Shown: in pieces, positions 190-16,060 of the stretch | Numbering within the stretch: position 1 is the first letter of the stretch | How the letters are laid out: each line of letters starts with the position of its first letter | Assembly (NCBI GenBank): GCA_026395315.1 | Contig: JAPLYY010000024.1 | Span: 1-35,117, forward strand | Direction: 5' to 3' | DNA from: Candidatus Shapirobacteria bacterium | Lineage (GTDB): Bacteria; Patescibacteriota; Microgenomatia; UBA12405 | DNA: 35,117 nt | Program-made: the position numbers and the translations under genes | Notes under the pieces: model-generated | The model's input: only the letters and a program-made list of their open reading frames with translations | The model's database searches: none | Told to the model about the DNA's origin: nothing

Positions 190-326
190 AAAAATCGCGC
201 GCGCAAAAAATAAAAAATATTAGCGAGGCCGAAGGCCGAGCGAAGATGGCGCGGCGAGTGGCCGGCCGCACTCGCCGCGCCTACCTTTGTTTGAAATCAG
301 TTCGAATTTTTTCGAAAACACTCACC
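190..326. repeat. GC-rich recombinase-associated repeat element, copy A
   Basis: It starts with AAAAATCGCGCGCGCAAAAAATAA (190-213), the same motif as at 30521-30545 and in reverse at 26484-26508. It contains a 13-bp-stem GC hairpin (248-260/269-281). It ends with TTGAAATCAGTTCGAATTTTTTCGAAAAC (291-319), near-identical to 30616-30644. The stop codon of recombinase 297-1994 lies inside it. Confidence 0.75.
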
Positions 327-1994
327 AACTGGTACTGAAGCAGTACCAAAGTGGTGTTTTAGTCCTAAATACGGGGCTAATCTGGGGGTTCCAGAAGTTA
401 AATCTGAGTAGGTTGGCATACCATCAAAAATGAGTCCGAAAAAGGCTGCTCGTTTGAGTGGATTAGCCGTATCTATCAACAATTCTTCGAGGTGTTCCAG
501 AAAGTATCCAATGCGCTCCATGACGTTCTCCATATTAATGGTATAGATTTCCTTGGTTTTTTCTTTCTTCTCATGCTCCAGTTGTTCTATATCCGCCTCG
601 GCTTTTAATAGATCTGCCTCCATATATTTAATAGCAACCTCTGATGATAAAAACTTTATTTTATCGGCAGATGCCTGGGCTGATGCTTTTAGCTCCATAA
701 TTTTTTTATCAATTATCGATCCGTCCTGTATTTTGCTACCCACTCGTTCGTTCCATTTTGCTACAACATATTTTTTCAGATTGTCGATATATTCCTGATC
801 AAACTTTAAGTTTCTAACGAAATCTTCGACCGTCTGCTCTAGCTCTTTAGAAGAGACTCGGAAATAGTGTCCGCGCTTGTTGCAATGATAGGCTGGGTAA
901 TATGTTCCTAAATGACCTCGCGAGGCACTACCAAATAAGGGTTTATGACATTCGGGACACATAATGACGCGCTTGTATGGAAATTTTGGATTGTTAATAA
1001 GTTTCTTGGTCATCCAATCCGGCAATTTTTTCTTCCAGAGTTTTACATCGTCACCAGTTTGAGATAACACCAGTTTACCCTTATTGGCTTTATTAAAAGT
1101 ATCAATAGATATTAATCCTTCGAATTTGCCTTTGACGACTTGGCCCTCTGTCCATTTTTCATTATTTATACCGGCAAATATGGGATTTTGGATATAGCGC
1201 CAAAATTGTTTAATTCTTAGAGGTTTACTGCCTCGTTGTCCGATTACTTTTGTCCGATCGTTCGGGTCACGGACAAATTGTTTTCTCGATTTATAACCCA
1301 TCCGGTTAATCTCATCGACTATTTCCTGGTCAGACATAGTGCCCTGGCAACGTAGATCAAACATTTTTATAATCCATTGAGACTCTTCCGGATTGGGTTT
1401 AAGAATAACTCGTTTGCCATGGGGCGTCTCTATTTTCTCATTCACATATCCAAATGGCGGTTGTCTGACCCGATATCCCATACGGACATATCTGATTTCT
1501 GCTCCGATCATACGGGTCATGATATCCCGCATTTCATCTTTAGCTCGTTCTGCCTCAAGAATCTCTGACTTTTTCGTCGGACTATAAACACTCCATTTAT
1601 ACGAAATATTAAGATGTTCGAGAGTATTTACATCTTTGCTCCCAATAATGCCATAAATATCAACTAACTGAACCTTATGGTTTTCCAGCTGCATTTTAAG
1701 ATGGTCGTATAAGTAAGAGCCACCACGGGTAAAACGATCGATGGATTTAATAATAAATAGCTGAATGTTATTCTTCGGATTTTTACAGTAATCGATTGCC
1801 TCCTGAACCGGCTGTTCTTCTTTGGAGGCAGACTCCATGAAGATAAAGAACTTCTTAACTTTGATATTACGTGCCAAAGCAAACCGTTCTATCTGTTCCT
1901 TTTGGGCTTCCGGAGAATCACCTTCTAATCCTTGTTTAAGGGATGAAATACGTATTGCCGCGACTGCATTTTCTTGAACAGATGTTGGGTTCAT
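297..1994 (-). CDS. large serine recombinase (resolvase N-domain + recombinase domain + zinc ribbon)
   Basis: 565-aa ORF. The N-terminus AAIRISSLKQ carries the catalytic-Ser context, followed by SIDRFTRG. A central FGY-type recombinase domain is present, with a Cys pair CPECHKP...YHCN and a C-terminal coiled-coil. Confidence 0.9.
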   Translation of the reverse strand: MNPTSVQENAVAAIRISSLKQGLEGDSPEAQKEQIERFALARNIKVKKFFIFMESASKEEQPVQEAIDYCKNPKNNIQLFIIKSIDRFTRGGSYLYDHLKMQLENHKVQLVDIYGIIGSKDVNTLEHLNISYKWSVYSPTKKSEILEAERAKDEMRDIMTRMIGAEIRYVRMGYRVRQPPFGYVNEKIETPHGKRVILKPNPEESQWIIKMFDLRCQGTMSDQEIVDEINRMGYKSRKQFVRDPNDRTKVIGQRGSKPLRIKQFWRYIQNPIFAGINNEKWTEGQVVKGKFEGLISIDTFNKANKGKLVLSQTGDDVKLWKKKLPDWMTKKLINNPKFPYKRVIMCPECHKPLFGSASRGHLGTYYPAYHCNKRGHYFRVSSKELEQTVEDFVRNLKFDQEYIDNLKKYVVAKWNERVGSKIQDGSIIDKKIMELKASAQASADKIKFLSSEVAIKYMEADLLKAEADIEQLEHEKKEKTKEIYTINMENVMERIGYFLEHLEELLIDTANPLKRAAFFGLIFDGMPTYSDLTSGTPRLAPYLGLKHHFGTASVPVGECFRKNSN

Positions 1995-2143
1995 AGGTTG
2001 TTAGTTGTTTTAATATTCTCTTTTTCGATAATTCGATCGACGATGAGGTTGGCGATTATTTTTAGTCTCTCTTCTACGGATAATTGAGGACCATTTTGAG
2101 GTAAATTCTTCGATTCTTTTGCTTCTACTCTTATTCGTTTCAT
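1991..2143 (-). CDS. small hypothetical protein (50 aa) translationally coupled to the serine recombinase
   Basis: This ORF is not in the supplied track because it is under 60 aa. It translates as ATG...MKRIRVEAKESKNLPQNGPQLSVEERLKIIANLIVDRIIEKENIKTTNNL. Its TGA overlaps the recombinase ATG (ATGA overlap at 1991-1994). Confidence 0.4.
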   Translation of the reverse strand: MKRIRVEAKESKNLPQNGPQLSVEERLKIIANLIVDRIIEKENIKTTNNL

Positions 2144-2162
2144 AGCAGGTATTTATTACAAA

Positions 2163-2180
2163 CTATCACTATAGTGATAG
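2163..2180. promoter_or_regulatory. perfect 18-bp palindrome, candidate operator in a divergent intergenic region
   Basis: CTATCACTATAGTGATAG is its own reverse complement. It lies between the minus-strand small ORF/recombinase operon and the plus-strand coupling-ATPase gene. Confidence 0.5.
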
Positions 2181-2286
2181 TATAGCAAATACAATGCCGG
2201 TGTCAAGCTCTTTTCCTCAACTAAAACCCTTTGCGAAAACCTTGCCTCTGGAGTATCATTCGAGCAACATCGAATATGGTTACTAG

Positions 2287-4929
2287 ATGATGTTAGCTGC
2301 CCAAACACGGACAGCTATGTGGAAAAATAATATTGTTCTCAAAATCTTCCAGAAAGAATTTGTTTCTTACAGTCATTCTTTAAGTCCGTATTTTCTGTCT
2401 TTTTCTCATTTCATTGTTGTCTATCTGCCTTTTCTTATTTGGCTTGTTGTTGCGCTAACTATTTTCTGGATTTGTTACATCTCAGTTAGACTCTACCTGT
2501 TTTGGAAAGAATCAAACAAACCGGTCACGATATTTGAAGTAGTTCCTCCCACATTAACCGAACAGAGTTCGTTCACGACAACTCAACTGTTTACTTCTGT
2601 TCATGGGTTACTACGCCAGCGATCTTGGATACTCCGTTTATTCGATGTCACAAAGTCGTATGCTTTTGAAATTGTTTCAACAAAAGAAAAAGGTATTTGT
2701 TATATCCTGCGGGTTTCTGCTGATGATGCTCAAATCATCAAGAAAAATTTATTAGCATATTTACCTGGTATTCAGATCAAAGAAACGAATGACTATTTTA
2801 AAGACAATTGTGATCAAGGCCATGTCATTGATATCCATTTAACCAGACATTTCGCTTTCCCACTTAAAAAACAAGACAACCTTGAAGAATACGATCCGAT
2901 TGCCTATATCACCGGATCAATGACTAAACTGGTTGATGATGAAATGGTAGCTGTACAAACGATTGTATCGCCTATAAATAGGTCAACGGCGCACGTTATT
3001 GGACGGCTTCGGTCGCTTTTCCTCGGGGACAAAGATGTTCTTTCTGAATTACAAACGACTAATCCGTTAGGCTCTTTTTTGGTACCGATTATCCATTTGC
3101 TTCTGCAAATCTTATTATTTCCATTGGGCTTATTAATCTGGATAGTTACAGTTGGTCGGGAAGGGCCAATCCTGCCAATTATGTCCTTAAAAGGTCAATT
3201 ACCGGATAGCACTTACAGGGATATTGTTGAAACTCAAATCAAGCAAAAGATAGATCAACAATTGTTTACCGTTTCTTTACGGTTACTCACGGTTTCTAGT
3301 TCTTACTCAAACAAATCAAAAATTGAAAAAGGTTTTATTGCCGCGTTGTCTCCATTTACTAATGCAGGGTATCAATCACTTAGACCCAAAAGATATATCA
3401 AAATCAAAGCAGTAAACAAGATACTGCTTTGGCTCTATCAACATAGATTATTGGGTCTCAGTGGCAATTTGACGCTCTCTATGTCTGAGTTATCCGATCT
3501 CTATCATTTCCCCTATACCAGTACCACTAAAACCGAGAATCTTTCAAAATTACACAGCAAAGAATTACCAGCACCGTTATCCCTGAAACAAAAAACTGAG
3601 TGTGATCTGTATTTTGCCAAAAATACGTATGGAGGAACGGAAACGAAAATTGGATTAACGGTTGATGAACGCCGCCGCCATGTCTATATCTTGGGTGCTA
3701 CCGGTACAGGAAAATCCACAATGCTTCTGTCTATGATCCAGCAGGACATCGAGCACAATAAAGGGTTATGTGTGATCGATCCGCACGGAGATTTAATCGA
3801 ACAGGTCTTATCGGTTATTCCTAAATCGCACATTCCTGATGTGGTCTACTTTAACCCTGATGATATAAGTTTCCCGATGGGAATTAATTTATTAGAGTTA
3901 ACCCCAGGCTTGAATCCTGAAAACGCGGTCAGAGAACAGGAGTTTATTGCTGAAAGCATTATTTCAATTTTTCAAAAAATCTACACCGATAAATACTCAG
4001 GCCCGAGAATGGAATATATTTTGAGAAACACAATACATACTGCTTTTACTATTCCGGACGCAACACTCTTTACCATTTACAAACTTCTCATTAATACAGG
4101 CTTTAGAAAATCAGTGGTACGAAACTTAACCGACGAAAATCTTAAGGACTTTTGGAAGTATGAGTTTGCTAAAGCCGGAGATTATCAAAAAGTTAAAATG
4201 ATTTCGCCGATTACCAACAAGATTGGTCGTTTCCTATTTTCTCCAACTGCCAAACGGATTCTCGAACAGGGAAAATCCACCATTAATTTCGACACTATTC
4301 TTAATGACGGGAAAATACTTCTTTGCAATCTTTCGAAGGGCAAGATCGGAGAGGATAATTCCAGTGTCTTTGGAGTCCTCATTATGGCCAAGGTTCAGTT
4401 GGCTTCCTTAAAACGTGCCAGGATGAAGCAAGAAGAACGCAGGGATTTCTATTTATATGTTGACGAGTTCCAAAACTTTGCCACTCCGGCATTTGCTCAA
4501 ATTCTGTCCGAGGCCCGTAAGTATCGACTTGATGCCATATTAGCTCACCAAACAACTTCACAAATTGAAGACAACTCACTGGTAAATGTAACTCTGGCTA
4601 ATACGGGTACAGTAATCTGTTTCCGAACGGCTAATCCTGAAGATGAGCGGATGATATTGCCGCAATTTAGGCCATATATTGAACAGGGAGAAATTGCCAG
4701 CTTGCCCTCGTATCGTTTCTATATACGGCTTGGAGCTATGAATCCGGAAGAGCCGTTCTCAGGCATTACCGTTCCTGTTCATATCGAATACAGTCAAAAA
4801 CGGATAGATGAAGTCATTGAGTCTTCGCGCCATTTATATGCCAGGGAATGGAAAGAGGAATCTCCTAATACACCACCAATTAAAAGTGAGAAAAAAACAG
4901 CTTCACATTCAACAAGCCTCTTACCTTAG
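2287..4929 (+). CDS. type IV secretion coupling protein-like ATPase (VirD4/TraG/TraD family) with N-terminal membrane domain
   Basis: 880-aa ORF. Hydrophobic N-terminal segments are present. Walker A is GATGTGKST, followed by VIDPHGDL. Walker B is LYVDEFQNFAT, followed by ARKYRLDAILAHQTTSQ. Confidence 0.8.
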   Translation: MMLAAQTRTAMWKNNIVLKIFQKEFVSYSHSLSPYFLSFSHFIVVYLPFLIWLVVALTIFWICYISVRLYLFWKESNKPVTIFEVVPPTLTEQSSFTTTQLFTSVHGLLRQRSWILRLFDVTKSYAFEIVSTKEKGICYILRVSADDAQIIKKNLLAYLPGIQIKETNDYFKDNCDQGHVIDIHLTRHFAFPLKKQDNLEEYDPIAYITGSMTKLVDDEMVAVQTIVSPINRSTAHVIGRLRSLFLGDKDVLSELQTTNPLGSFLVPIIHLLLQILLFPLGLLIWIVTVGREGPILPIMSLKGQLPDSTYRDIVETQIKQKIDQQLFTVSLRLLTVSSSYSNKSKIEKGFIAALSPFTNAGYQSLRPKRYIKIKAVNKILLWLYQHRLLGLSGNLTLSMSELSDLYHFPYTSTTKTENLSKLHSKELPAPLSLKQKTECDLYFAKNTYGGTETKIGLTVDERRRHVYILGATGTGKSTMLLSMIQQDIEHNKGLCVIDPHGDLIEQVLSVIPKSHIPDVVYFNPDDISFPMGINLLELTPGLNPENAVREQEFIAESIISIFQKIYTDKYSGPRMEYILRNTIHTAFTIPDATLFTIYKLLINTGFRKSVVRNLTDENLKDFWKYEFAKAGDYQKVKMISPITNKIGRFLFSPTAKRILEQGKSTINFDTILNDGKILLCNLSKGKIGEDNSSVFGVLIMAKVQLASLKRARMKQEERRDFYLYVDEFQNFATPAFAQILSEARKYRLDAILAHQTTSQIEDNSLVNVTLANTGTVICFRTANPEDERMILPQFRPYIEQGEIASLPSYRFYIRLGAMNPEEPFSGITVPVHIEYSQKRIDEVIESSRHLYAREWKEESPNTPPIKSEKKTASHSTSLLP

Positions 4930-4966
4930 TAATGAAATATAAGACAGTTTATACTACAATCGATTT

Positions 4967-7078
4967 ATGTCAGAAGTAGATTCCCCAATAAAGTTAGAAC
5001 CTGTCTTTTTTGGTAAGGGAGAAGCGGCTTCTCATCTACATCTTTCAAATACACAACGGGAAGCGGTCAAGGCTATTACCCTGGGTATTACTGAAGTAGA
5101 TGAAGCGGTGAGAGCCCAAGCAGTTCCTGATATCATTAATACTCTTGAAAATGGTCATCCACTCAACCGCTTAATTACAGACCCTGAAGGTAAAACGATT
5201 GGCTATATTGCCTGCGAAGATTTTGTTCCTCAAGAAGCATATATAAAATACCTCGGAACAACAAGGAATTCAGGTCGAAGTCTACTTGAGGAAATACCTG
5301 CTTTCTTAAATTTTGCAAAAGATCATGGATACAAGAAACTTAATTTTCATGGTTGGAATGACCGATTAAATCATGTAATGGAACACTACGGTTTTAAAAA
5401 TACTCGGACTGATGCAATGGGAGGACATAATATAAATTATTATGAACGGTCACTACTTTCCCATAAAGGGAAACCGCTAGATGAGGGGCAATTTGAAAAA
5501 GAATACCAAAAGGTCATGAATATGGTTGAACCTGAGGAACGAAGTAAAAAGGAACGGGAAATTACTCGTGTGTTTCAGGAAGTAAGCGGCAGGCTTACAA
5601 GTTATGAAAAAACATTACCGAGAGAGAAACAAAGATTTGAATTTGGTCAGCGTCAGCAGGATATTTTAAAACTGAAACTCGCGCGCCATTTTCAAAACAG
5701 CGAAACCATTGACGCAAACACCCTCTATGACGCCATCATTGAAAGTCCAAAATTTATTGATAATGACAAAGGTTCCCTGAAGCACTTATTTGAAGTTCAT
5801 GAAGTGAAGACGTTACAAAAACTTGCCGAAGCACGCAAAAAATTGGCTGAAAGATCGGGAGATCAAAGTTTTAACCCGTATGAAAATTTATTTACCACCA
5901 CATCCGGCAAGTATTATATGGCAAGGCTTTTAAATATGCCCCATTTAGAGCAAGAGTCCGCATATCTGAAACACTGTGTAGGGACAAGTGATTCCTATAT
6001 TAATCAAATGAAACGGGGAGAAATTGAAATACTTTCTTTTAGAAATGTACCCAAATTTAATCCACTCACCCAGGAGCTTGAAGGTGATACCCCCATTTTT
6101 ACCATTGAGTATAATCTGAAAACAAATATAATTGAGCAAATTAAAGGCAGAAAAATGAGTGATCGTACAGAGCTGCTTATTTCTCCGAATGATGCTTACT
6201 TTAACGATATAATTGATGCATTAAAAACACTGCGGTCAACCAGAACAGATAACGGCAAGTTAAGAAATTTCACCGAGATTTCCCCAAGTGAATTACAAAA
6301 TATTCATGTTGATGTATATCAGGTCTTTACTGAAAATGGACCTGTTTCCTTTAGAGATTTCGACCCAGATTCTGGAGTGTTTGCCTTAAAGATGGGTAAG
6401 ATGTCGATTGACGCAACTATGTCTCATGAAGATGTTGCTAAAATTGTCAGACTGACAAAAGGAGTTAGGTGTTTACCAGAAGAAATTGCTCTGGCTCAAG
6501 AAGAAGTGTCTGCTCAAACCAAAGTGCTGTATGTCGATAAACTTTCTTCAAGGTTTTTTCAGTGGCTACCTGAAAATGTTGAACATGTCTACGACTCTTT
6601 TTCAGAAGGTAAAATTAGTAGAGAGAGTATAGTGGCTGGAGGTATAAGTGCGAAGGTACTGGTAACTGATATGAAACAAAAGGGAATGGAACCAAGCGAT
6701 TATGCCAAATCAATGATGGAAAATTCGGATTTTGTTACATTAAAGCAATCGGAAAAAATAGACTTAATTCATCTAACGGTTGGTGACATGGGTTTTACTG
6801 ATATACCAACGACCGATGAACTTTATCAGAGAGCTTTGGAGTTAGGTCTAGAACTTTGCCCACCAGAAGTTGGTCCAGCACTTCGTTTGAAAGATGAAAA
6901 TCAAGCAATGTGGAGTAGCTATTATATTGGAATGAAGCAAATTTCTGGCTCTGACGGCGGTCCGGACGTGTTCGAGGTCGGACGCGGTGGCGATACCCCG
7001 TGGTTGCGTAGCGTTTGGGCCTATCCGGGCTATCACTGGGCTCTCGACCGTGAGTTTGTCTTCCGTCTTCGCAAGTAA
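4967..7078 (+). CDS. DGR1 target protein, multidomain, with C-terminal variable region
   Basis: 703-aa ORF lying 37 nt downstream of the coupling ATPase. The last ~47 codons are the VR matching TR1. I saw no N-terminal signal peptide or TM segment. The N-terminal region is GNAT-like by eye. The central YLKHCVGTSDSY...GEIEILSFR is reminiscent of PcfJ-like proteins, but both domain calls are tentative. Confidence 0.85.
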   Translation: MSEVDSPIKLEPVFFGKGEAASHLHLSNTQREAVKAITLGITEVDEAVRAQAVPDIINTLENGHPLNRLITDPEGKTIGYIACEDFVPQEAYIKYLGTTRNSGRSLLEEIPAFLNFAKDHGYKKLNFHGWNDRLNHVMEHYGFKNTRTDAMGGHNINYYERSLLSHKGKPLDEGQFEKEYQKVMNMVEPEERSKKEREITRVFQEVSGRLTSYEKTLPREKQRFEFGQRQQDILKLKLARHFQNSETIDANTLYDAIIESPKFIDNDKGSLKHLFEVHEVKTLQKLAEARKKLAERSGDQSFNPYENLFTTTSGKYYMARLLNMPHLEQESAYLKHCVGTSDSYINQMKRGEIEILSFRNVPKFNPLTQELEGDTPIFTIEYNLKTNIIEQIKGRKMSDRTELLISPNDAYFNDIIDALKTLRSTRTDNGKLRNFTEISPSELQNIHVDVYQVFTENGPVSFRDFDPDSGVFALKMGKMSIDATMSHEDVAKIVRLTKGVRCLPEEIALAQEEVSAQTKVLYVDKLSSRFFQWLPENVEHVYDSFSEGKISRESIVAGGISAKVLVTDMKQKGMEPSDYAKSMMENSDFVTLKQSEKIDLIHLTVGDMGFTDIPTTDELYQRALELGLELCPPEVGPALRLKDENQAMWSSYYIGMKQISGSDGGPDVFEVGRGGDTPWLRSVWAYPGYHWALDREFVFRLRK

Positions 7079-7082
7079 CTTT
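6937..7082 (+). repeat. DGR1 variable repeat (VR1)
   Basis: It gives a 146-nt ungapped alignment to the reverse complement of 8521-8666. There are 27 differences, and 25 of them fall at positions that are A in the TR. The segment TGAGTTTGTCTTCCGTCTTCG near the 3' end is identical in both copies. Confidence 0.92.
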
Positions 7083-7114
7083 GACCCTTTGTTCCTTAGT
7101 TCCTCCTTTACTAC

Positions 7115-8212
7115 TTAGGGATTTTGATTCTTTGACTCTTTGTTCTCCTTGTCGCGAAGCGACTCAGTCATAATTTTTTGTGAGAGCTTGTATGTGTTCC
7201 CATGACGCAATAAACCCAAATATGAATTTAATGTTTCCAATGAGTTGTTTTGTCGCAGTCTTTTCAACATGTGGTGTTTGGTGGCCGTACGGAGAATTCG
7301 ATGATGACCAAAATGTACCCAACCTAAAAAATCAATTCCTGAGGCAAGCGTTTTGATAAAGACTTTTTTAGGATGAAGGGAAAGTTTTAAATTTGTTTCT
7401 AAATATTCGGAAAGTTTTGGAATAAGTTCTTCTAAGTATATTTTACTTTGACTAAAGATGAGAAAGTCGTCAGCATAGCGCAAATAATATTTCACTTTCA
7501 ATTTTCTTTTCACAAATTGATCGAATTGATTCATATAAATATTAACGAGAAGCTGACTGGTTAAATTGCCAAGAGGAAGCCCAACACTAAGTTTTCCAAC
7601 AGTTTCAAAACTATCAATGACTTGTTCCAGAAGCCACATGATATCAGGATCTTTAATGGATTCTTTTAAGATATTTTTGAGAACAGCGTGGTCAACACTG
7701 GCAAAAAATTTTCTAATATCACCCTTTAAAATCCAAGTGGTTTTCGTGTTATTTTGAGATGCCTTTCGTCCAAAACTTCTGGCTCTATCCATGGCCTTAT
7801 ATGTGCCCTTACCCATTCTGCAAGAATAGGAATCAAAGATAAATTGACGATCAAAATAAGGATAGAGACTACGGTGAAGAGCATGATGAACGATTCTATC
7901 GCGGAGACTTGCCTTGTGAATATCTCTTGGTTTGGGATCGCTTATTTTAAAAGCAAAATAGCCACCATGTCGATATGTTTTGGTAATCAAGTCTTCATAA
8001 AGAGAAATCAAATTATCGGAAAAATGTAAGATAAATGTAGCAACATCTTTTCTGTTCTTTTTTCCTCGTAAGAATTCCTGCCATGAGGTTAGTAAATTTT
8101 CAAAAGAAACGATATCATTATACCTATGGTTAAAACGCTTTCTTTTAGCAGCGCTTCGATTTTGATTAAAATCAAAGATGGATATTTGCTCTGGACGAGT
8201 ATTGTTTCTCAT
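7115..8212 (-). CDS. DGR1 reverse transcriptase
   Basis: 365-aa ORF. It carries LPLGNLTSQLLVNIYMNQFD (the DGR-type IGxxxSQ motif), the YADD box (LRYADDFLIF), LSLHPKK and GIDFLGW. It is adjacent to Avd and TR1. Confidence 0.9.
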   Translation of the reverse strand: MRNNTRPEQISIFDFNQNRSAAKRKRFNHRYNDIVSFENLLTSWQEFLRGKKNRKDVATFILHFSDNLISLYEDLITKTYRHGGYFAFKISDPKPRDIHKASLRDRIVHHALHRSLYPYFDRQFIFDSYSCRMGKGTYKAMDRARSFGRKASQNNTKTTWILKGDIRKFFASVDHAVLKNILKESIKDPDIMWLLEQVIDSFETVGKLSVGLPLGNLTSQLLVNIYMNQFDQFVKRKLKVKYYLRYADDFLIFSQSKIYLEELIPKLSEYLETNLKLSLHPKKVFIKTLASGIDFLGWVHFGHHRILRTATKHHMLKRLRQNNSLETLNSYLGLLRHGNTYKLSQKIMTESLRDKENKESKNQNP

Positions 8213-8509
8213 ATTCCTAAGTGTGCCCGATATACCATTGGTACACGAATTGAAAATAAATTTTTAGATCTTTTGGAACTTTCCTATCACACCTACTTTA
8301 CAGAGAAAGATAAAAAGATAGAAAAAATTACTGAATGTATCTCAATTCTAGATACCTTAAAATTTTTTATCTATATTTCTTGGGAGGCAAAATTTATTTC
8401 TCCTAAAAGTTATGAGTCAATGACGGTTATACTTGATACTGTTGGAAAAATGTTTGGTGGCTGGAAGAAAAGTTTGGAAATTTTAGAGAAGAAAAAAGAC
8501 ACCTCTTAG
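8126..8509 (+). CDS. avd: Avd-like four-helix-bundle accessory protein of DGR1 (start uncertain; TTG at 8162 gives 115 aa)
   Basis: The core DGYLLWTSIVSHIPKCARYTIGTRIENKFLDLLEL...MFGGWKKSL aligns by eye with Avd2 (YDFILWLYPIINRLPKNHCLIIGKTLEE...MLTGWIG). Its 5' end overlaps the RT1 5' end on the opposite strand. Confidence 0.7.
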   Translation: MVKTLSFSSASILIKIKDGYLLWTSIVSHIPKCARYTIGTRIENKFLDLLELSYHTYFTEKDKKIEKITECISILDTLKFFIYISWEAKFISPKSYESMTVILDTVGKMFGGWKKSLEILEKKKDTS

Positions 8510-8520
8510 GCGTACAAAAG

Positions 8521-8666
8521 AAAGATACTTTCGAAGACGGAAGACAAACTCATTGTCGAGATTCCAGTGATTGTCCGGATTGGCCCAATTGCTATTCAAC
8601 CACGGGGTGTCGTCATTGCGTTCGACCTTGAACACGTTCGGATTGCCGTCAGAGTCAGTTTTTTGT
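8521..8666 (-). repeat. DGR1 template repeat (TR1)
   Basis: Read on the minus strand it has nine AAY codons, and every one of them differs in VR1 (VR1 has G,D,G,R,V,Y,Y,A,R). It is on the same strand as RT1. Confidence 0.92.
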
Positions 8667-9004
8667 ATGAAGTGCCATCTTTGCCACTGTTCCCGGAAAA
8701 TGCCGAAGAACTGTATTGTATGTGTGATATAAAATCAACCAGCACTCCACACCAAGTATATTTCTTTAAAAGACAGGACTGTAAATCCTCTGTAGAAAGC
8801 CGTAACCATCTGCAATCTCAATTTCCAGCTGTCAGAAAGATCTCGAGAAGCCGTAACCGCTCAATATAATCTATCTAACGAAAGTATAACAGAAACATAT
8901 TGTGTATTTTGATCAATTATATAGATGATTATCAGACGATTTATGTCCTGGTTGGTTAGGAATTATTAAGTGGTATTTTTGGTTGATATCATCATGGTAA
9001 TCTT

Positions 9005-9022
9005 TTACCTACCGGTAGGTAA
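9005..9022. promoter_or_regulatory. perfect 18-bp palindrome, candidate oriT or operator upstream of the replication-relaxation gene
   Basis: TTACCTACCGGTAGGTAA is self-complementary. It lies in the 235-nt AT-rich intergenic region upstream of 9105. Confidence 0.4.
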
Positions 9023-9083
9023 TGAGATATTTTTATTTAGGCCGATAGATAGGGTTATTTATTTTTTACTTTTACTTCTTATT

Positions 9084-9097
9084 CCTTATATATAAGG
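9084..9097. promoter_or_regulatory. perfect 14-bp palindrome adjacent to the RBS of 9105-9914
   Basis: CCTTATATATAAGG is followed immediately by GGAGAGG and the ATG at 9105. Confidence 0.4.
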
Positions 9098-9104
9098 GAG
9101 AGGA

Positions 9105-9914
9105 ATGATACAATCATTCCAGATTCTGCACCAACACAATACTATGGACAACAATACTCTTACAGACAAACAACTGACTATTCTCAAACTACTATACCGA
9201 TTTCGATTTTTAACTAGCACTCACATTCAACACTTACTCAATGACAAAACATCACGACTAACAAATTATCATCTTAAAATTTTAACGACTCAAAATTATA
9301 TAAACAAACACTACACACGAACACTCGGATCAGGCAACCAGCCAGCTATTTATTTTCTCTCGTCAGGAAGTATCAAAGCATTACAAAATATTGAGGGTAT
9401 AGAATCAAAAACACTCCAGCGTATTTATCGGGAAAAAATCAGATCACCACAATTTATCTCTCATGCCATATTTATTGCCCAATATTATCTTTATCTACAA
9501 TCTGAATCTGCAAAATCAAAACATACTCTACACTTCTTCACCAAAACAGACTTATTAGCTCACAAATATATTATCCACCCCTTGCCCGACGCCTATTTTG
9601 CCCGAGTTGATGAAAAGAAAGAAACCAAACGCTATTTTGTCGAAGTTATCGACGAGGGCGCGCCACGGTTTGCCTTAAGAAAAAGAATTGAGCAATATAC
9701 CGACTATATCGACAACGGCACATTTGAAAAGGTAACTAAACACCCATTCCCGACAATCCTCTTAATCTGTCCAACCGTTGGAGTACAAATATACTTAAAA
9801 AAATATCTTGCCAAAATGTACGAAGAATCTTCCCTTGATCAAATAGAAATCTTCATTACCACCAAAGAAGGGGCATTCTTGGGCCAGTGGGAAAAAGTAA
9901 ACCCAGAGGAATAG
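9105..9914 (+). CDS. replication-relaxation family protein (putative relaxase-like function)
   Basis: 269-aa ORF. The N-terminal LTDKQLTILKLLYRFRFLTSTHIQHLL is the typical wHTH opening of Replic_Relax proteins. The conjugation-gene neighbourhood supports the call. Confidence 0.6.
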   Translation: MIQSFQILHQHNTMDNNTLTDKQLTILKLLYRFRFLTSTHIQHLLNDKTSRLTNYHLKILTTQNYINKHYTRTLGSGNQPAIYFLSSGSIKALQNIEGIESKTLQRIYREKIRSPQFISHAIFIAQYYLYLQSESAKSKHTLHFFTKTDLLAHKYIIHPLPDAYFARVDEKKETKRYFVEVIDEGAPRFALRKRIEQYTDYIDNGTFEKVTKHPFPTILLICPTVGVQIYLKKYLAKMYEESSLDQIEIFITTKEGAFLGQWEKVNPEE

Positions 9915-9946
9915 TAGATCGCCAATACTATTCTCTATTATTGGAA

Positions 9947-10312: not shown

Positions 10313-10400
10313 ATTCCTCCTTTTTTGAACAATTAAGAAGGAGGTTACTCTCTCTCTGAAAGTCAAGTTTTGGGCGTCACAACAAGCTTTTTCATACATA

Positions 10401-10435
10401 AAACAGCCTCAGATTTTTGAGACCTGAGGCTGTTT
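10401..10435 (-). terminator. 12-bp-stem hairpin downstream of the DUF2958 gene
   Basis: AAACAGCCTCAG (10401-10412) pairs with CTGAGGCTGTTT (10424-10435). The A/T runs at the stem ends would allow it to work in either direction. Confidence 0.5.
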
Positions 10436-10444
10436 GAGACTGAC

Positions 10445-10759
10445 TTACTTTTTCGTTTGCGGTATTACCTCGCTGATTCGTTTTTCTCCAAAATATCTGT
10501 CTCGCTCAATACCGATTCCAAACTTTCCGCGATAACTTTGAAGCTCAAACAGTGCAAACGAACCCCACTCATCATTCCAATCGCCGAAGATGGAAACATA
10601 GCCAAAAAACTCCTTCGTGATTGGATCAAATTCAGTTGCATACCAGATACCAGCTCCGGCAGGATTAAAAAATTTCGCAATTACCAGAGGATCGCTAACG
10701 TTTTCTTGTCTGCCCACCTTTCCAAATCTTTTTAATAGTTCTTTAGTTAACAGTTGCAT
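10445..10759 (-). CDS. DUF2958 domain protein (conjugative-plasmid associated)
   Basis: 104 aa. The sequence LLTKELLKRFGKVGRQENVSDPLVIAKFFNPAGAGIWYATEFDP...FFGYVSIFG...ELGSF-type pattern...ERDRYF matches the characteristic DUF2958 layout. Confidence 0.8.
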   Translation of the reverse strand: MQLLTKELLKRFGKVGRQENVSDPLVIAKFFNPAGAGIWYATEFDPITKEFFGYVSIFGDWNDEWGSFALFELQSYRGKFGIGIERDRYFGEKRISEVIPQTKK

Positions 10760-10802
10760 TATTTATTCACCCCCTTTCTTTTTGCTGCTTCCGGAAAATT
10801 AA

Positions 10803-12040
10803 TGTATTTGGAAGCATGCCCATGCTTCCAATACTTGGATGTCTTCAAAGCGGGGTGAGGTTTGCAAGGGCAAGCGAAGCACAGTTTATTGGAGTGAAAC
10901 GGAAACCCTTGCCAAACGAGGGGCAAGACCCCTAAATATCAAATTATTTAAAAAAGTGATTAGGACGCGATACATTTCGGACTCTTATACAAAAATATAT
11001 GAGTCACGAGACAGACAGAACAAGACACATTCTTCCAAAGCTGGGCAAGGGTAATTACAATACCCTGATGAAGCTGATTTCAAATAGTCTTACTTTTAGT
11101 GTTTCTGATTGTGCTAAGTTCAGGCTTCATGTATTGGATCATTATTTTAAACATGGCATCAAGTCCACCTGTCATGCTTTTAATCTTCCAAGGAGCACTG
11201 TGTATGGTTGGAGGAAGTCTTTTTTATCCTCAGACAAAAAGATAGTTTCTCTGGTTCCCAAATCCACCAGGCCAATTAGAACAAGGCAGATGGTGCTTGA
11301 TCTAGAACTTCTGGAGTTTATTAAATCAATGAGAGAAGAATATGGAAATCTGTCCAAATATAAAATCAAGCCATTCTTAGATGAATACTCCAAAAAGAAC
11401 AATCTACCTTTATATGGAACAACCAAAATTGGAGTAATTATTAAAAGAAAACACTTTTTCTTTGAAACTAGATCAAAAAGGAGATTTAAAAGAAAACCCT
11501 TTATAGTGAGGCTAAAAAGATCTCCCAAAGAAACTATCCCGGGATATATTGAAATGGACTCTGTAATCATTCAGGTGATTAACAGAAAATATTTCTTTTT
11601 AACAGCAATTGATATTGTTACTAAATTTGCTTGGGTAAAAATGACCACAAACCATTCCTCAAGGCAAGCCAAGCTTGCCTTAATTGAATTCAAAGAAAAT
11701 TACAAATACTGTTTAAGAACAGTCCAAACTGACAATGGATCAGAATTCTTAAGTGAGTTTGATGAGTATTTGCAGGAGATCAAAATCAAACATGAGTTTA
11801 TCTATCTTAAAAGTCCAAAAATAAATGGTGTGGTTGAGAGATTCAACAGAACCATACAAGAGGAATTTATTCAAAGAAATGATAGTTACATTGATGACAA
11901 GTTTAAATTTAATCAAAAACTACAAAATTATCTAATCTGGTACAATACAAAAAGACCACATTACTCACTGGGACAAATTTCCCCCTATGAGTACATGCAA
12001 AGATTTACCTTAAAAGTCTGAAATGTACCCGACCTATACA
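10803..12040 (+). mobile_element. IS481-like insertion sequence (boundaries approximate)
   Basis: It contains a single rve-type transposase ORF. The putative ends are TGTAT... (10803) and ...TATACA (12040), which are only weakly complementary. No flanking direct repeat was seen. The right end abuts the truncated VirB4-like reading frame. Confidence 0.5.
10999..12021 (+). CDS. DDE transposase with integrase core (rve) domain, IS481-like
   Basis: 340 aa. An N-terminal HTH-like region is followed by IEMDSV, VQTDNGSEF, INGVVERFNRTIQEEF and YNTKRPHYSLGQISP. Confidence 0.85.
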   Translation: MSHETDRTRHILPKLGKGNYNTLMKLISNSLTFSVSDCAKFRLHVLDHYFKHGIKSTCHAFNLPRSTVYGWRKSFLSSDKKIVSLVPKSTRPIRTRQMVLDLELLEFIKSMREEYGNLSKYKIKPFLDEYSKKNNLPLYGTTKIGVIIKRKHFFFETRSKRRFKRKPFIVRLKRSPKETIPGYIEMDSVIIQVINRKYFFLTAIDIVTKFAWVKMTTNHSSRQAKLALIEFKENYKYCLRTVQTDNGSEFLSEFDEYLQEIKIKHEFIYLKSPKINGVVERFNRTIQEEFIQRNDSYIDDKFKFNQKLQNYLIWYNTKRPHYSLGQISPYEYMQRFTLKV

Positions 12041-12042
12041 GT

Positions 12043-13218
12043 GAAAACAAACTGGCACAAAAAAGAAACCTAGATAGCTCGAGTGCAGCACTCACTTTCC
12101 CGTTTGTGTCATCGGAATTGGTACAGGAATCTGGAATTCTTTACGGCATCAACAAATCAAATAACTCGCTAGTCATTATTGATCGCTACAGTCTAAACAA
12201 CGCCAACTCCATTATTTTTGCCCAATCGGGAAGCGGGAAAAGCTATACGGCTAAAGTCGAAATTTTAAGACACTTAATGCAGGGTACCAAGGTTATCATT
12301 ATCGATCCGGAGCGGGAGTACAAACAATTGGCGGCGAGTGTTAACGGTACCTATATCAAACTTTCGAGTAGTTCCAAAGAAAAAATTAATCCGTTTGAGT
12401 ATTCCCAACATTCAGTCACTGATGAAAACAATTTGACTGAACATATTCAAGATCTCACTGAGCTTATTTCCCTGATGGTTGGTTCACTAACCTCAGAGGA
12501 GCGGGCATCGGTCGACCGGGCTTTGCTTCTAACTTATAAAAAGATCGGTCTGACTACCCGTAAGAATGCGAGATCGAAAAAAGCAGAGTATCCACTCCTG
12601 AAAGATTTTTACAAAAATCTCAAAGTCATGAAACATAAAGATCTCTGTGACAGGCTAGAACGGTTTGTCAAAGGTTCACTCTCGACTGTTTTTGATTCTC
12701 AAACCAATATTAAACTCGATAACCGTTTAATTGTTTTTGATATTAAGGATCTCAACGAATCCATCCGATCAATCATGATGATGGTCGTGGCCAATTTTGT
12801 AAACAACGAAGTCAAACAAAATCCACAAAAGAGAATGTTGGTGATAGATGAGGGCTGGCTCCTTTTGCAAGAACCGGAAAGCGCTAGGTTTATTTCAGGG
12901 TTGGTAAGACGTGCAAGAAAATATTATTTAGGAGTCACTATTATTACTCAGCAAGCCAATGACTTTTTGAATCAGGAATACGGAAAAGCTATCGCCAGCC
13001 AATCATCCTTAAGAATTCTGATGCGCCAAGATACGACAACAATTAAAAAAGTAGCCAGTGAATTTCATTTATCCGCCTACGAACAGCACTATTTATTAAC
13101 TTGCGACCGAGGGGAAGCTCTCATTATCGCCGATCAAAATCATGTGGCAGTAAAAGTGGTAGCCTCAGATGAAGAACATCCACTTCTGACCACCGACCCC
13201 AGAGAAGTCTACATCTAG
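12043..13218 (+). pseudogene. VirB4/TrbE-like T4SS ATPase, C-terminal fragment (N-terminal half missing)
   Basis: Walker A is AQSGSGKSY, Walker B is MLVIDEGW, followed by RRARKYYLGVTIITQQ. The frame stays open upstream of the GTG at 12106 (..SENKLAQKRNLDSSSAALTFPF..) as far as the IS end. No N-terminal VirB4 portion is found to the left of the IS. Confidence 0.7.
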
Positions 13219-13220
13219 CT

Positions 13221-13847
13221 ATGAACCCCAAGGTAATACTCACTCTTTGGTCATTTCGGAAAGAGTTGAAGTTCGTCCTAATAGCTTTTATTGCTGTGTT
13301 GATGCTGCCTGTAGTTGCCGTCATTCTTCTTACTCAGGTCGGTATCAATGTTATTTCCAACAAACTGGTTGATCAAAATCCAACGAACCAAGCCATCCAG
13401 ATTAAAGATCCTGTGACAGGTAAAGTTGTCAAAGAAATCAACCCGACGATTGTTTGGCCAACCAAAGGAGTGATTACCCTCGAATTTGGAGAAATGAGTA
13501 TTTATCAACCGTTTCATACAGGGATTGATATTGCCGGAAAATTGGATGATCCGGTCAATCCAGCCATGGATGGTACCGTTATTTATGCCGGAGAAATCTT
13601 TTGGGGATTTGGAAAACACATCATTATTGATAATGGCAATAACATTCAAACTATCTATGCTCACTTAGACAAGATCTATGTCTACAAGGGTCAGAAGGTC
13701 ACTACAGACAGTGTAATTGGCGGCCAGGGTGAAACCGGCTGGGCAACAGGTGTTCATCTTCACTTTCAAGTAAACGTTTACGGGATACCAGTCAATCCGA
13801 GGGTGTTTTTAGGCGACGGATCTCCTCCTCTGACAGCCTTGAATTAG
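13221..13847 (+). CDS. membrane-anchored M23 family metallopeptidase (T4SS-associated cell-wall hydrolase candidate)
   Basis: An N-terminal TM helix is present. Motifs are HTGIDIAG (HxxxD) and GWATGVHLHFQV (HxH). It starts 3 nt after the VirB4-like stop. Confidence 0.85.
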   Translation: MNPKVILTLWSFRKELKFVLIAFIAVLMLPVVAVILLTQVGINVISNKLVDQNPTNQAIQIKDPVTGKVVKEINPTIVWPTKGVITLEFGEMSIYQPFHTGIDIAGKLDDPVNPAMDGTVIYAGEIFWGFGKHIIIDNGNNIQTIYAHLDKIYVYKGQKVTTDSVIGGQGETGWATGVHLHFQVNVYGIPVNPRVFLGDGSPPLTALN

Positions 13848-16024: not shown

Positions 16025-16060
16025 TAAGAAAAGTGGGAAAGATAAGTCATAACGCAACGT

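What the first reader, a model, noticed from the sequence alone, without database searches (positions are those of the whole stretch)
2287..7078. The DGR-diversified protein is embedded in a conjugation module and looks cytoplasmic
The DGR1 target lies 37 nt downstream of, and on the same strand as, a VirD4/TraG-like coupling ATPase. It sits in a cluster with replication-relaxation, DUF2958, VirB4-like and M23 genes. I could not see a signal peptide or TM helix. The N-terminal half looks like an enzyme or adaptor (GNAT-like, PcfJ-like motifs, both tentative). Most characterised DGR targets are surface-displayed ligand binders. A diversified partner or substrate of a T4SS coupling protein would be an unusual use of a DGR, for example as a transferred effector, an exclusion or recognition factor, or an anti-defence protein.
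Basis: inference. Interest (0 to 1): 0.75.

Follow-up and report, generated by a model that had tools for sequence, protein, structure and literature searches.

The report
DGR cassette inserted in CPR mobile element
A hypermutating (DGR-diversified) enzyme-like protein sits beside a conjugation ATPase only because its 4-kb cassette was inserted there as cargo, so it is an ordinary member of an already catalogued family of targets and not a partner of the secretion machine.

Summary
ORF 4967-7078 (703 aa) is a real DGR target: 24 of 26 TR/VR mismatches fall at template adenines. It starts 37 nt after a T4CP-like gene. It has no hydrophobic N-terminus, TM segment or lipobox. It has a GNAT fold, a PcfJ domain and a C-terminal variable module.

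The functional link to the coupling protein is not supported. In 27 of 38 related elements from many CPR lineages, the T4CP gene is followed directly by the Replic_Relax gene. The window, and one 84 %-identical contig, carry a discrete 4.07-kb insertion at that spot (target, RT, Avd, TR; 4930-9004). Of 51 genomic loci encoding the target family, one has an adjacent T4CP. The rest lie among housekeeping genes (dnaA, recA, nusA, secY, rpsL), and about 40 % have their own DGR. The window's T4SS is also decayed: an IS replaces the pilin and PrgI genes and the first 206 codons of virB4.

PcfJ-like CPR DGR targets (Wu 2018) and signal-less CPR targets (Roux 2021) are already described.

Most likely function, by inference: a cytoplasmic GNAT/PcfJ enzyme whose C-terminal recognition module is retargeted by the DGR, here carried as integrative-element cargo.

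The parts
297..1994 (-). Large serine recombinase, left-hand gene of the mobile element
   Evidence: Pfam Resolvase and Recombinase. Found in the same position, upstream of and divergent from T4CP, in many related loci.
2287..4929 (+). T4CP-like (VirD4/TraG/TcpA-type) ATPase with two N-terminal hydrophobic segments
   Evidence: Pfam TrwB_AAD_bind, T4SS-DNA_transf, TraG-D_C, DUF87. NCBIfam conjugative coupling-protein models match only below their cut-offs. 56-83 % aa identity to 38 loci across CPR lineages.
4930..9004 (.). 4.07-kb DGR1 cargo block inserted between the T4CP stop and the palindrome/Replic_Relax region
   Evidence: Blastn to 30 or more canonical elements stops at about 4826-4856 and resumes at 9005. 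In those elements the two points are 0-100 nt apart in most, and up to about 1.4 kb in a few. Only L098 shares the insertion.
4967..7078 (+). DGR1 target gene, 703 aa: GNAT fold, helical linker, PcfJ domain, C-terminal variable module
   Evidence: Full-length homologues are 40-57 % identical and confined to CPR/Patescibacteria.
5048..5452 (+). GNAT-fold domain (aa ~28-162)
   Evidence: AlphaFold model pLDDT ~85-95 in this region. Foldseek against PDB gives 78 hits with E<=1e-3; the top 50 listed are almost all GNAT-fold acetyltransferases. No Pfam GNAT model matches at E<=0.01.
5780..6154 (+). PcfJ-like domain (aa 272-396), with an invariant NMPHLxxES...HCVGTSDSY...EI.S.R...T.EY...Q.K core
   Evidence: Pfam PF14284, 29.4 bits (cut-off 25). 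Invariant columns. Foldseek BFVD hits to phage PcfJ-like proteins.
6464..7075 (+). C-terminal ~200-aa module carrying the VR. It is a reusable unit found alone or at the C-terminus of many other CPR proteins.
   Evidence: Representative search: many proteins match only profile positions ~492-694. Alignment A6. No Pfam or PDB sequence match. Weak C-type lectin fold signal.
6938..7082 (+). Variable repeat VR1 (last 47 codons plus the stop)
   Evidence: The variable codons have family-wide entropy of 2.83 bits, against 1.62 for the other VR codons.
7115..8212 (-). DGR reverse transcriptase RT1
   Evidence: Pfam RVT_1. YADD and LGNLTSQ motifs. Orthologues sit next to the target in 18 of 51 family loci.
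8126..8509 (+). bAvd accessory gene, divergent from RT1 and overlapping its 5' end
   Evidence: Pfam bAvd, 49.4 bits. The same Avd-opposite-RT arrangement occurs in the family loci.
8521..8665 (-). Template repeat TR1 (sense on the - strand, same strand as RT1)
9008..9019 (.). Palindrome CCTACCGGTAGG, which in canonical elements lies a few nt after the T4CP stop. Homology resumes here.
9105..9914 (+). Replic_Relax protein (candidate relaxase/replication protein), normally the gene right after T4CP
   Evidence: Pfam PF13814. Synteny.
10445..10759 (-). DUF2958 gene of the element
   Evidence: Pfam. Conserved in related loci.
10999..12021 (+). IS transposase (rve) that replaces about 4-5 kb of the canonical element
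   Evidence: Pfam rve, rve_3, HTH_28. Synteny gap against L063, L066, L072 and L073.
12040..13218 (+). VirB4 remnant: only residues 207-599 of the 599-aa canonical protein
   Evidence: tblastn, 93 % identity over L063 VirB4 residues 207-599. No pilin or PrgI homologue anywhere in the window.
13221..13847 (+). M23 peptidase of the element
   Evidence: Pfam. Synteny.

Best explanation
ORF 4967-7078 belongs to a large protein family specific to CPR/Patescibacteria and mostly encoded on chromosomes. The family combines a GNAT-fold domain, a PcfJ domain and a C-terminal variable module of about 200 aa.

In this window the gene and its own DGR (RT1, Avd, TR1) form a 4.07-kb block. That block was captured as cargo in the spacer between the T4CP gene and the Replic_Relax gene of a widespread integrative, conjugative-type element of CPR bacteria. 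The adjacency to the coupling ATPase therefore comes from an insertion. It is not evidence of a functional partnership.

Shown: the DGR is real and stayed active after capture. It rewrites about 17 codons at the protein's C-terminus through adenine-specific mutagenic retrohoming.

Inferred: the protein works in a cytoplasm, because it has no export signal and a GNAT enzyme needs acetyl-CoA. The hypervariable C-terminal module would act as the recognition part, directing the conserved GNAT/PcfJ part to changing protein or nucleic-acid ligands. Those ligands most plausibly arise in conflicts with phages, other mobile elements or the host bacterium. The catalytic activity and the ligand are unknown.
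For: DGR authenticity.

Insertion: blastn synteny to canonical elements breaks at about 4829-4856 and resumes at 9005. Junction sequences share the palindrome CCTACCGGTAGG. Of 38 T4CP loci, 27 have Replic_Relax as the next gene and none has the target. Only the 84 %-identical contig L098 shares the T4CP-37 nt-target arrangement.

The family is chromosomal. Neighbours are nusA/tig, dnaA/dnaN, recA/recX, rny, rpsL/fusA and secY/adk/map. An RT lies within 3 kb in 14 of 35 assessable loci. A T4CP is adjacent in 1 of 51 loci, even with profile HMMs.

Activity after capture: the window and L098 VRs differ at 24 positions, 20 of them at TR adenines.

Domains: GNAT fold; PcfJ. The GNAT and PcfJ cores are the most conserved parts, with entropy about 1.0-1.2 bits against 2.8 at the variable codons.

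The binding end is modular. The C-terminal module recurs on many other proteins. Relatives of the PcfJ core carry pentapeptide or LRR repeats in its place, or a second GNAT.

No export signal.

Literature: PcfJ-like CPR targets (PMC5758913); CPR targets lack TM domains and signal peptides (PMC8144416); about 2 T4CP genes per Patescibacteria genome, mostly away from virB4 (PMC12102498).
Against: No activity, ligand or localisation was measured.

No Pfam GNAT model matches. The acetyl-CoA loop is only partly canonical: [RK]-x-x-G-R-[SN] in place of Q/R-x-x-G-x-G/A (read from the alignment).

The PcfJ domain has no known function and no solved relative.

The C-type lectin assignment of the variable module is weak (E 0.08).

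SignalP and TMHMM were not run, and non-classical export cannot be excluded.

Two independent juxtapositions with T4CP-like genes exist (the window/L098 event, and L033). This is slightly more than the roughly 0.4 % per locus I estimate for chance adjacency. Some bias towards T4CP neighbourhoods, for example through shared residence in mobile regions, is therefore not excluded.
Confidence: 0.72

Rival explanations
1. The diversified protein is a substrate, adaptor or specificity factor of the T4SS coupling protein. It could be a translocated effector, an exclusion or recognition factor, or an anti-defence protein delivered with the DNA. On this reading its placement right after the T4CP gene reflects co-expression and physical interaction.
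For: A 37-nt spacer on the same strand, with no terminator-like site between the genes. The arrangement is conserved in L098. A second, independent juxtaposition with a different T4CP-like gene occurs in L033. The PcfJ domain is named after a gene of the conjugative plasmid pCF10 and is common in phages. The Patescibacteria T4SS is proposed to serve host interaction and not conjugation (PMC12102498).
Against: None of 38 related T4CP loci encodes the protein, and 27 have Replic_Relax in that position. Only 1 of 51 family loci is adjacent to a T4CP. Neighbourhoods are housekeeping. The block is a discrete insertion. In this window the pilin and PrgI genes and the first 206 codons of virB4 are missing, so there is no complete channel in cis. 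In L033 the T4CP-like gene sits in a ribosomal-protein/secY/adk/map/ndk context, not in a transfer module.
Confidence: 0.07
2. Like classical DGR targets, the protein is exported by a route that needs no recognisable signal, or released by lysis. Its variable C-terminus would then bind structures on the host bacterium's surface, supporting the episymbiotic lifestyle of CPR cells.
For: Most characterised cellular DGR targets are surface binders (PMC8144416). CPR bacteria depend on attachment to hosts. Some relatives replace the variable module with BspA-type LRR repeats. Type IV pilus ATPase genes lie nearby in two loci. There is a weak C-type lectin fold signal.
Against: No signal peptide, TM segment or lipobox in the protein or in 120 homologues. 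The GNAT fold implies dependence on acetyl-CoA, a cytoplasmic cofactor. PcfJ domains occur in phage and plasmid proteins with no known surface role. Other relatives carry pentapeptide repeats, which are typical of cytoplasmic proteins.
Confidence: 0.15
3. The cassette is an inert passenger. The DGR no longer functions and the target gene is drifting, so neither its position nor its variability has current biological meaning.
For: The surrounding element is decaying: an IS insertion, a truncated virB4, and a second DGR whose target carries an in-frame stop and a TR/VR pattern that is not adenine-specific.
Against: The target ORF is full length relative to its homologues. RT1 and Avd are intact and RT1 carries its catalytic motifs. 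24 of 26 TR/VR differences are at adenines, with no frameshift. The VRs of the window and L098 differ almost only at TR adenines.
Confidence: 0.06

Closest known systems
CPR DGR targets of category 'g' (PcfJ-like motif upstream of the VR) in Wu et al. 2018, Nucleic Acids Res 46:11 (PMC5758913)
   Same: CPR host. The target has a PcfJ-like Pfam motif N-terminal to a C-terminal VR that cannot be assigned by sequence to the CLec or Ig classes. The DGR has avd, TR and RT with variant avd/TR orientation, the feature by which that survey separates its architecture-B subtypes; one subtype, B3, makes up 90 % of CPR DGRs. I could not check which subtype this cassette belongs to.
   Different: That survey gives no function, structure or genomic-context analysis for this class. 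Here the GNAT fold, the modular C-terminal unit, the mostly housekeeping contexts and one capture by a mobile element are documented. I could not check whether the exact loci overlap, because the supplementary tables are not held.
Legionella pneumophila Corby DGR on an integrative conjugative element, target LdtA (as summarised in PMC5758913)
   Same: A DGR and its target carried as cargo of an integrative conjugative element. The VR is at the C-terminus.
   Different: LdtA is a lipoprotein with an export signal, displayed on the outer membrane. This target has no signal, TM segment or lipobox, and carries GNAT and PcfJ domains.
DGR targets fused to intracellular signalling or enzyme domains (P-loop NTPases, kinases, proteases, nucleotidyltransferases) in cyanobacteria and others (PMC7517822; PMC5758913)
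   Same: A C-terminal hypervariable binding domain is appended to conserved cytoplasmic enzyme or regulator domains. The proposed role is retargeting of recognition inside the cell.
   Different: The enzyme partners differ (GNAT plus PcfJ). The VR module is not recognisable as FGE-sulfatase/CLec by sequence.
PcfJ-like proteins (Pfam PF14284) of plasmid pCF10 and of many tailed phages
   Same: They share the PcfJ domain: Pfam above cut-off, and Foldseek probability 1.0 to predicted phage PcfJ-like structures.
   Different: The phage and plasmid proteins are not known to be DGR targets, and they have other flanking regions. The function of the domain is unknown in all of them.
Patescibacteria T4SS of MPF-FATA type (PMC12102498)
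   Same: The surrounding element has VirB4, VirB2-like pilins, PrgI/VirB3 and a VirD4-type T4CP in its canonical copies.
   Different: That paper describes mostly chromosomal T4SS clusters without relaxases. This element has a serine recombinase and a T4CP-Replic_Relax pair, and shows 65-84 % nucleotide identity across CPR classes. It therefore looks like a true mobile element. The window's copy is truncated.

Membership tests
Diversity-generating retroelement (DGR) | TR/VR pair whose differences fall almost only at template adenines | tested here: met
   145-nt repeat, 26 mismatches, 24 at TR adenines. 22 of the 26 are at codon positions 1 and 2, and the TR has AAT/AAC codons.
Diversity-generating retroelement (DGR) | DGR-type reverse transcriptase next to the TR | tested here: met
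   RVT_1 at 81.5 bits. YADD and the (I/L)GxxxSQ signature (LGNLTSQ) are present. The RT is on the same strand as the TR.
Diversity-generating retroelement (DGR) | Accessory variability determinant (Avd) | tested here: met
   bAvd at 49.4 bits, cut-off 40.
Diversity-generating retroelement (DGR) | VR at the 3' end of an intact target ORF, followed by an invariant IMH-like stretch | tested here: met
   The VR covers the last 47 codons. The last ~35 nt of the repeat are nearly identical between TR and VR. IMH function itself was not tested.
Diversity-generating retroelement (DGR) | Ongoing mutagenic retrohoming | tested here: inconclusive
   Indirect only. The VRs of the window and its 84 % relative differ at 24 sites, 20 of them at TR adenines. 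No read-level data are available.
PcfJ-like protein (Pfam PF14284) | Match to the family HMM above the gathering score | tested here: met
   29.4 bits against a cut-off of 25, aa 272-396. Many homologues carry the same precomputed hit.
PcfJ-like protein (Pfam PF14284) | Fold shared with other family members | tested here: met
   Foldseek against BFVD: 13 hits with E<=1e-3, most of them annotated PcfJ-like. TM-scores are low because only one domain aligns.
GNAT acetyltransferase superfamily | GNAT fold | tested here: met
   Foldseek against PDB: probability 1.0, E down to 6e-6, TM-score normalised to the target up to 0.72 (Ard1/Naa10, PA4866 and others).
GNAT acetyltransferase superfamily | Sequence match to a GNAT family model | tested here: not met
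   No Pfam or NCBIfam GNAT model at E<=0.01.
GNAT acetyltransferase superfamily | Acetyl-CoA binding loop Q/R-x-x-G-x-G/A and transferase activity | tested here: inconclusive
   The family has [RK]-x-x-G-R-[SN] at the beta4-alpha3 junction (alignment). Activity cannot be tested here.
C-type lectin-fold DGR variable domain | CLec fold carrying the VR | tested here: inconclusive
   Only weak Foldseek matches to Mincle and MCL CRDs: E 0.08-0.4, probability 0.3-0.8, TM-score normalised to the target 0.32-0.43. No sequence match to PDB or Pfam.
T4SS substrate / T4CP partner | Conserved genomic linkage with T4CP or T4SS genes | tested here: not met
   0 of 38 T4CP loci carry it. 1 of 51 family loci is adjacent to a T4CP. 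Pfam contexts are housekeeping.
T4SS substrate / T4CP partner | Complete cognate T4SS available in cis | tested here: not met
   Pilin and PrgI genes are absent. VirB4 lacks residues 1-206.
T4SS substrate / T4CP partner | Translocation signal, or T4CP-dependent transfer | not testable with these tools
   The C-terminus is basic (…FVFRLRK), but it is also the invariant end of the TR/VR repeat.
Integrative conjugative element (surrounding element) | Integrase, T4CP, relaxase candidate and VirB4-based mating channel | tested here: inconclusive
   The serine recombinase, T4CP and Replic_Relax are present. Canonical copies add two pilins, PrgI, a full VirB4 and M23. The window's copy lacks the pilins, PrgI and the VirB4 N-terminus. 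Relaxase activity of Replic_Relax, and transfer, are untested.

The most novel reading that the evidence does not exclude
The GNAT-PcfJ protein is a DGR-programmable intracellular acetyltransferase. Its hypervariable C-terminal module would select new protein or nucleic-acid substrates, such as phage, plasmid or host-bacterium factors. This would make it a diversifying defence or counter-defence enzyme that CPR mobile elements have begun to carry. In the most extreme version it would be delivered into the host bacterium through the repurposed Patescibacteria T4SS.
Probability: 0.15. Interest if true: 0.75.

Novelty: new member of a known kind. Interest (0 to 1): 0.3.

Why it matters
The result removes a tempting guilt-by-association inference. 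The diversified protein is not tied to the coupling ATPase. It came with a DGR cassette that inserted into a hot spot of a mobile element.

Three things of value remain.

(a) It is a concrete, high-confidence structural description (GNAT fold, PcfJ domain, reusable variable module) of one of the signal-less CPR DGR target classes. Roux et al. 2021 list the role of these classes as an open question.

(b) It is evidence that DGR cassettes travel together with their targets as cargo of an integrative element shared among CPR lineages. This fits the idea that mobile elements spread DGRs.

(c) It shows a conserved T4CP-Replic_Relax pair on that element. This bears on the reported scarcity of relaxases in Patescibacteria.

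Tried and rejected
(1) Rfam gathering scan of the window: no hits.

(2) Sequence searches of the whole protein, the PcfJ core profile and the C-terminal module profile against PDB: nothing meaningful.

(3) NCBIfam: no family for the target. PHROGs: only a weak family of unknown function over the PcfJ region.

(4) Foldseek of aa 225-703 against PDB: no hit at E<=1e-3. A restriction-endonuclease-like (PD-(D/E)xK) reading of the PcfJ core came from the pattern E330...D374...E381...Q391-x-K393 and the helix-plus-strands order of the core. No hit supported it, so it stays speculation.

(5) Pfam on ten other proteins that end in the same variable module: no domains.

(6) Promoter and terminator scan of 4700-9200: counts within the shuffled expectation.

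(7) Genetic code 25 was considered because an in-frame TGA sits at the Gly position of a GNVWEW motif in the DGR2 target. It was rejected: seven other genes end sensibly in TGA.

(8) One literature search for 'PcfJ' alone was swamped by C. elegans pCFJ plasmids. PF14284 gave no papers. Paul et al. 2017 is not held, and the Wu 2018 supplements are not held.

(9) I planned a bulk Pfam scan of all 289 flanking ORFs. I dropped it because the tool returns only the 25 commonest families. I used home-built profile HMMs of the element's genes instead.
Full report
**1. What is at the coordinates**

The ORF table shows an 880-aa ORF at 2287-4929 (+) and a 703-aa ORF at 4967-7078 (+), separated by 37 nt.

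The first ORF matches TrwB_AAD_bind, T4SS-DNA_transf, TraG-D_C and DUF87 above Pfam cut-offs. It matches conjugative coupling-protein models of NCBIfam only below their cut-offs. It has two strongly hydrophobic segments. It is a T4CP-like ATPase.

The last 47 codons of the second ORF form an inverted 145-nt repeat with 8521-8665. Of the 26 differences, 24 fall at adenines of the 8521-8665 copy. Of the 26, 22 are at codon positions 1 and 2, and the template has AAT/AAC codons.

Between the two repeats lie an RT (7115-8212, -) and a bAvd gene (8126-8509, +). The RT carries YADD and LGNLTSQ. DGR1 is therefore real, and the 703-aa protein is its target.

Downstream are Replic_Relax, a receiver-like ORF, DUF2958, an IS transposase, a VirB4-like P-loop fragment and an M23 peptidase.

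**2. The protein**

Hydropathy gives a maximum 19-residue mean of 0.75. There is no Cys before residue 83. Only one of 120 homologues exceeds 1.6 (1.64), and that segment is internal, near residue 500. No classical signal peptide, lipobox or TM helix is therefore visible. SignalP and TMHMM themselves could not be run.

An AlphaFold2 model built on 104 homologues has mean pLDDT 86.9. Foldseek against PDB assigns residues ~28-162 to the GNAT fold, with probability 1.0 and a TM-score normalised to the target of up to 0.72. No Pfam GNAT model matches.

Residues 272-396 match Pfam PcfJ above the cut-off. A second model of residues 225-703 (pLDDT 88.9) matches predicted structures of phage 'PcfJ like' proteins with probability 1.0. 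It matches no solved structure at E<=1e-3. The only other signal is a weak similarity of the C-terminal part to C-type lectin CRDs (E 0.08).

Across the family, the GNAT and PcfJ cores are the most conserved regions. The TR-adenine codons are the most variable: 2.83 bits, against 1.62 for the other VR codons.

**3. The family**

A search of 5.8 billion proteins finds 249 relatives. Nearly all are about 700 aa and 40-57 % identical. All named ones come from CPR/Patescibacteria, and some are labelled 'PcfJ domain-containing'. Only one, P0002, is close (84 %).

An exhaustive profile search finds 5,811 proteins at E<=1e-3. Many match only profile positions ~492-694. The C-terminal ~200 aa that carries the VR is therefore a reusable module. 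It occurs alone, or at the C-terminus of otherwise unrelated proteins with no Pfam domain.

Conversely, relatives of the PcfJ core carry pentapeptide or BspA-type LRR repeats in place of this module. One carries a canonical GNAT domain at the C-terminus. The architecture is thus a conserved GNAT/PcfJ part joined to an exchangeable binding part.

**4. Is the linkage to the T4CP conserved? No.**

(a) I examined 51 loci encoding the family in GTDB representative genomes. I searched their six-frame ORFs with the window's proteins and with profile HMMs built from the element's genes.
- Only L033 has a T4CP-like gene adjacent.
- L032 and L045 have weak P-loop hits 1-9 kb away.
- By contrast, an RT1/Avd1 pair lies within 3 kb in 14 of the 35 loci that have at least 3 kb downstream.

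(b) Pfam-annotated neighbourhoods of six members are housekeeping: nusA/tig/clpP; dnaA/dnaN/ftsH; recA/recX/rny; rpsL/rpsG/fusA; a DUF4268 gene next to a phage-like island; yceG. In L033 the target and its DGR sit between map and a T4CP-like gene inside the ribosomal-protein/secY/adk/map/ndk cluster.

(c) In the reverse survey I examined 38 loci encoding relatives of the window's T4CP, at 56-83 % aa identity. Their record titles name Parcubacteria, Nomurabacteria, Gottesmanbacteria, WWE3, Levybacteria, Shapirobacteria and others.
- They share the order serine recombinase (-), T4CP (+), Replic_Relax (+), DUF2958 (-) ... VirB4, M23.
- None encodes the target.
- In 27 of them the gene after T4CP is Replic_Relax.

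(d) Blastn shows that homology between the window and these elements stops at about 4826-4856 and resumes at 9005. That point is the palindrome CCTACCGGTAGG, which in canonical elements follows the T4CP stop codon within a few nucleotides.

The 4.07 kb in between (target, RT1, Avd, TR1) is therefore an insertion. In a few elements the same spacer holds about 1-1.4 kb of other DNA, so it appears to tolerate cargo. Only L098, the 5.6-kb contig encoding P0002, shares the insertion, with the same 37-nt spacer.

**5. State of the 'conjugation module' in the window**

A canonical copy (L063) encodes two T4SS pilins, PrgI and a 599-aa VirB4 between DUF2958 and M23. The window has an IS transposase at that place. 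It retains only VirB4 residues 207-599, and it has no pilin or PrgI homologue anywhere in its 35 kb. The element is thus decayed, and no complete channel is encoded in cis.

**6. Is DGR1 alive?**

The target ORF is full length, and RT1 and Avd are intact. The VRs of the window and of L098 differ at 24 positions, 20 of them at TR adenines. The preceding 600 nt are 79 % identical. Diversification therefore continued after the cassette entered the element. This evidence is indirect, because read-level data are not available.

**7. Literature**

- Wu et al. 2018 (PMC5758913) already list CPR target genes with a 'PcfJ-like protein' motif upstream of the VR (category g). They note VR classes in CPR that cannot be assigned by sequence. 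[quoted passage not shown]
- Roux et al. 2021 (PMC8144416) state that CPR targets, unlike most cellular targets, typically lack recognisable TM or other domains. They leave open whether these are genuine non-membrane targets.
- The Legionella DGR on an ICE is a known precedent for DGRs as ICE cargo.
- A 2025 survey of Patescibacteria T4SS (PMC12102498) finds 5,713 VirD4-type T4CP genes in 2,918 genomes, mostly far from virB4, and few relaxases. With about two T4CP genes per ~1,000-gene genome, I estimate chance adjacency of any given gene at about 0.4 % per locus. One adjacency in 51 loci is not significant enrichment.

**8. Interpretation**

Shown:
- a real DGR that was active after capture;
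- a target with a GNAT fold, a PcfJ domain and a modular variable end;
- no export signal;
- insertion of the whole cassette into the T4CP-Replic_Relax spacer of a mobile element;
- no conserved linkage to T4SS genes.

Inferred:
- The protein acts in a cytoplasm. GNAT enzymes need acetyl-CoA, and PcfJ domains occur in phage and plasmid proteins.
- The variable module supplies changing target recognition for the conserved enzymatic part.
- Because PcfJ domains are typical of phages and plasmids, and the binding end is exchangeable, a role in conflicts with mobile elements or the host bacterium is the most plausible. It is unproven.

Rival readings are T4SS substrate or partner, surface binder exported without a signal, and inert passenger. 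I rate them at about 0.07, 0.15 and 0.06.

**9. Verdict**

The 'cytoplasmic, enzyme-like' reading is supported. The proposed functional link to the coupling protein is not.

The object is a new member of an already catalogued class of CPR DGR targets, here riding on a decayed integrative element. Interest is modest. The remaining open question is what signal-less CPR DGR targets do. That question is real, but this locus does not make it newly testable beyond supplying a good structural model and a clear hypothesis.

Noticed in passing
window 15680-21384 (Avd2 15680-16024, TR2 16061-16177, RT2 16347-17492, VR2 18953-19069): A second DGR lies in the same element. Its TR/VR pair has 30 mismatches, only 8 of them at TR adenines. 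VR2 (GGDWNN...LGFRCAS, FGE-sulfatase/CLec type) lies in a reading frame in which ORFs 17719-18693 and 18805-21384 are separated by a single in-frame TGA. That TGA sits at the Gly position of a GNVWEW motif (…DIV*NVWEWT). It looks like a GGA-to-TGA nonsense mutation, making this target a pseudogene. Genetic code 25 was excluded because seven other genes end in TGA.
   Followed up: partly
L060-L095 (for example L063 3448-16174) and window 297-13847: An integrative element is shared by many CPR lineages at 65-84 % nucleotide identity. Its gene order is serine recombinase, T4CP, the palindrome CCTACCGGTAGG, Replic_Relax, DUF2958, two VirB2-like pilins, PrgI, VirB4, M23. The tight T4CP-Replic_Relax pair may be the 'missing' relaxase of Patescibacteria T4SS elements. 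MOB-class searches reported finding few relaxases (PMC12102498).
   Followed up: partly
window 10937-12043: An IS (rve-family transposase, 10999-12021) replaces about 4-5 kb of the canonical element, namely the pilin genes, PrgI, one ORF of unknown function and VirB4 codons 1-206. The T4SS of this copy cannot be complete.
   Followed up: yes
L083 4376-11857; L076 17751-18251: Other copies of the same element carry DGRs at other positions. L083 has the DGR2 cassette and its two target ORFs directly after DUF2958. L076 has an RT1-like fragment at its contig end. DGRs seem to be recurrent cargo of this element family.
   Followed up: partly
window 26282-30652: A second serine recombinase gene (26282-27820, -) is bracketed by perfect 103-nt inverted repeats (26323-26425 / 27868-27970). 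Immediately next to it, a 98 %-complementary 107-nt inverted pair (27964-28070 / 30546-30652) brackets a HopA1-like gene (28287-30008) and a 117-aa ORF. This looks like one or two invertible segments.
   Followed up: no
window 18001-25000: G+C rises from about 0.35-0.41 to 0.45-0.51 over the DGR2 target, an fn3/purple-acid-phosphatase-N protein and an ABC/FtsX (MacB-like) transporter. This suggests DNA of different origin.
   Followed up: no
window 7115-8665; L002 and most family loci; L059: In this DGR type, avd lies on the strand opposite to RT and TR, and the two stop-to-stop reading frames overlap at their 5' ends (87 nt in the window). In most family loci the TR-avd-RT block has the RT on the target's strand. 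In the window, L059 and L017 (Woesebacteria) the whole block is inverted relative to the target.
   Followed up: partly
L017 9989-12093; L059 9507-11602; proteins P0082, P0098 (533 aa): In a Woesebacteria subgroup the GNAT part and the PcfJ-plus-VR part are separate adjacent ORFs. In L017 the upstream ORF hits the target's N-terminus at E 7.5e-58. This is either a natural split or recurrent frameshifts.
   Followed up: partly
L033 5292-16675: A family member with its DGR is inserted between map and a 914-aa T4CP-like gene, inside the rpsE/secY/adk/map ... ndk cluster. This shows that T4CP-like genes can sit in core chromosomal contexts in CPR.
   Followed up: partly
proteins P0152, P0164, P0151: Relatives of the PcfJ core end in pentapeptide repeats and/or BspA-type LRR repeats in place of the DGR module. 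One carries a canonical Acetyltransf_3 GNAT domain after the variable module. The recurrent pairing suggests a functional PcfJ-GNAT partnership.
   Followed up: partly
window 13911-15441: An AbiEi/AbiEii toxin-antitoxin (abortive infection) pair lies between the M23 gene and DGR2.
   Followed up: no
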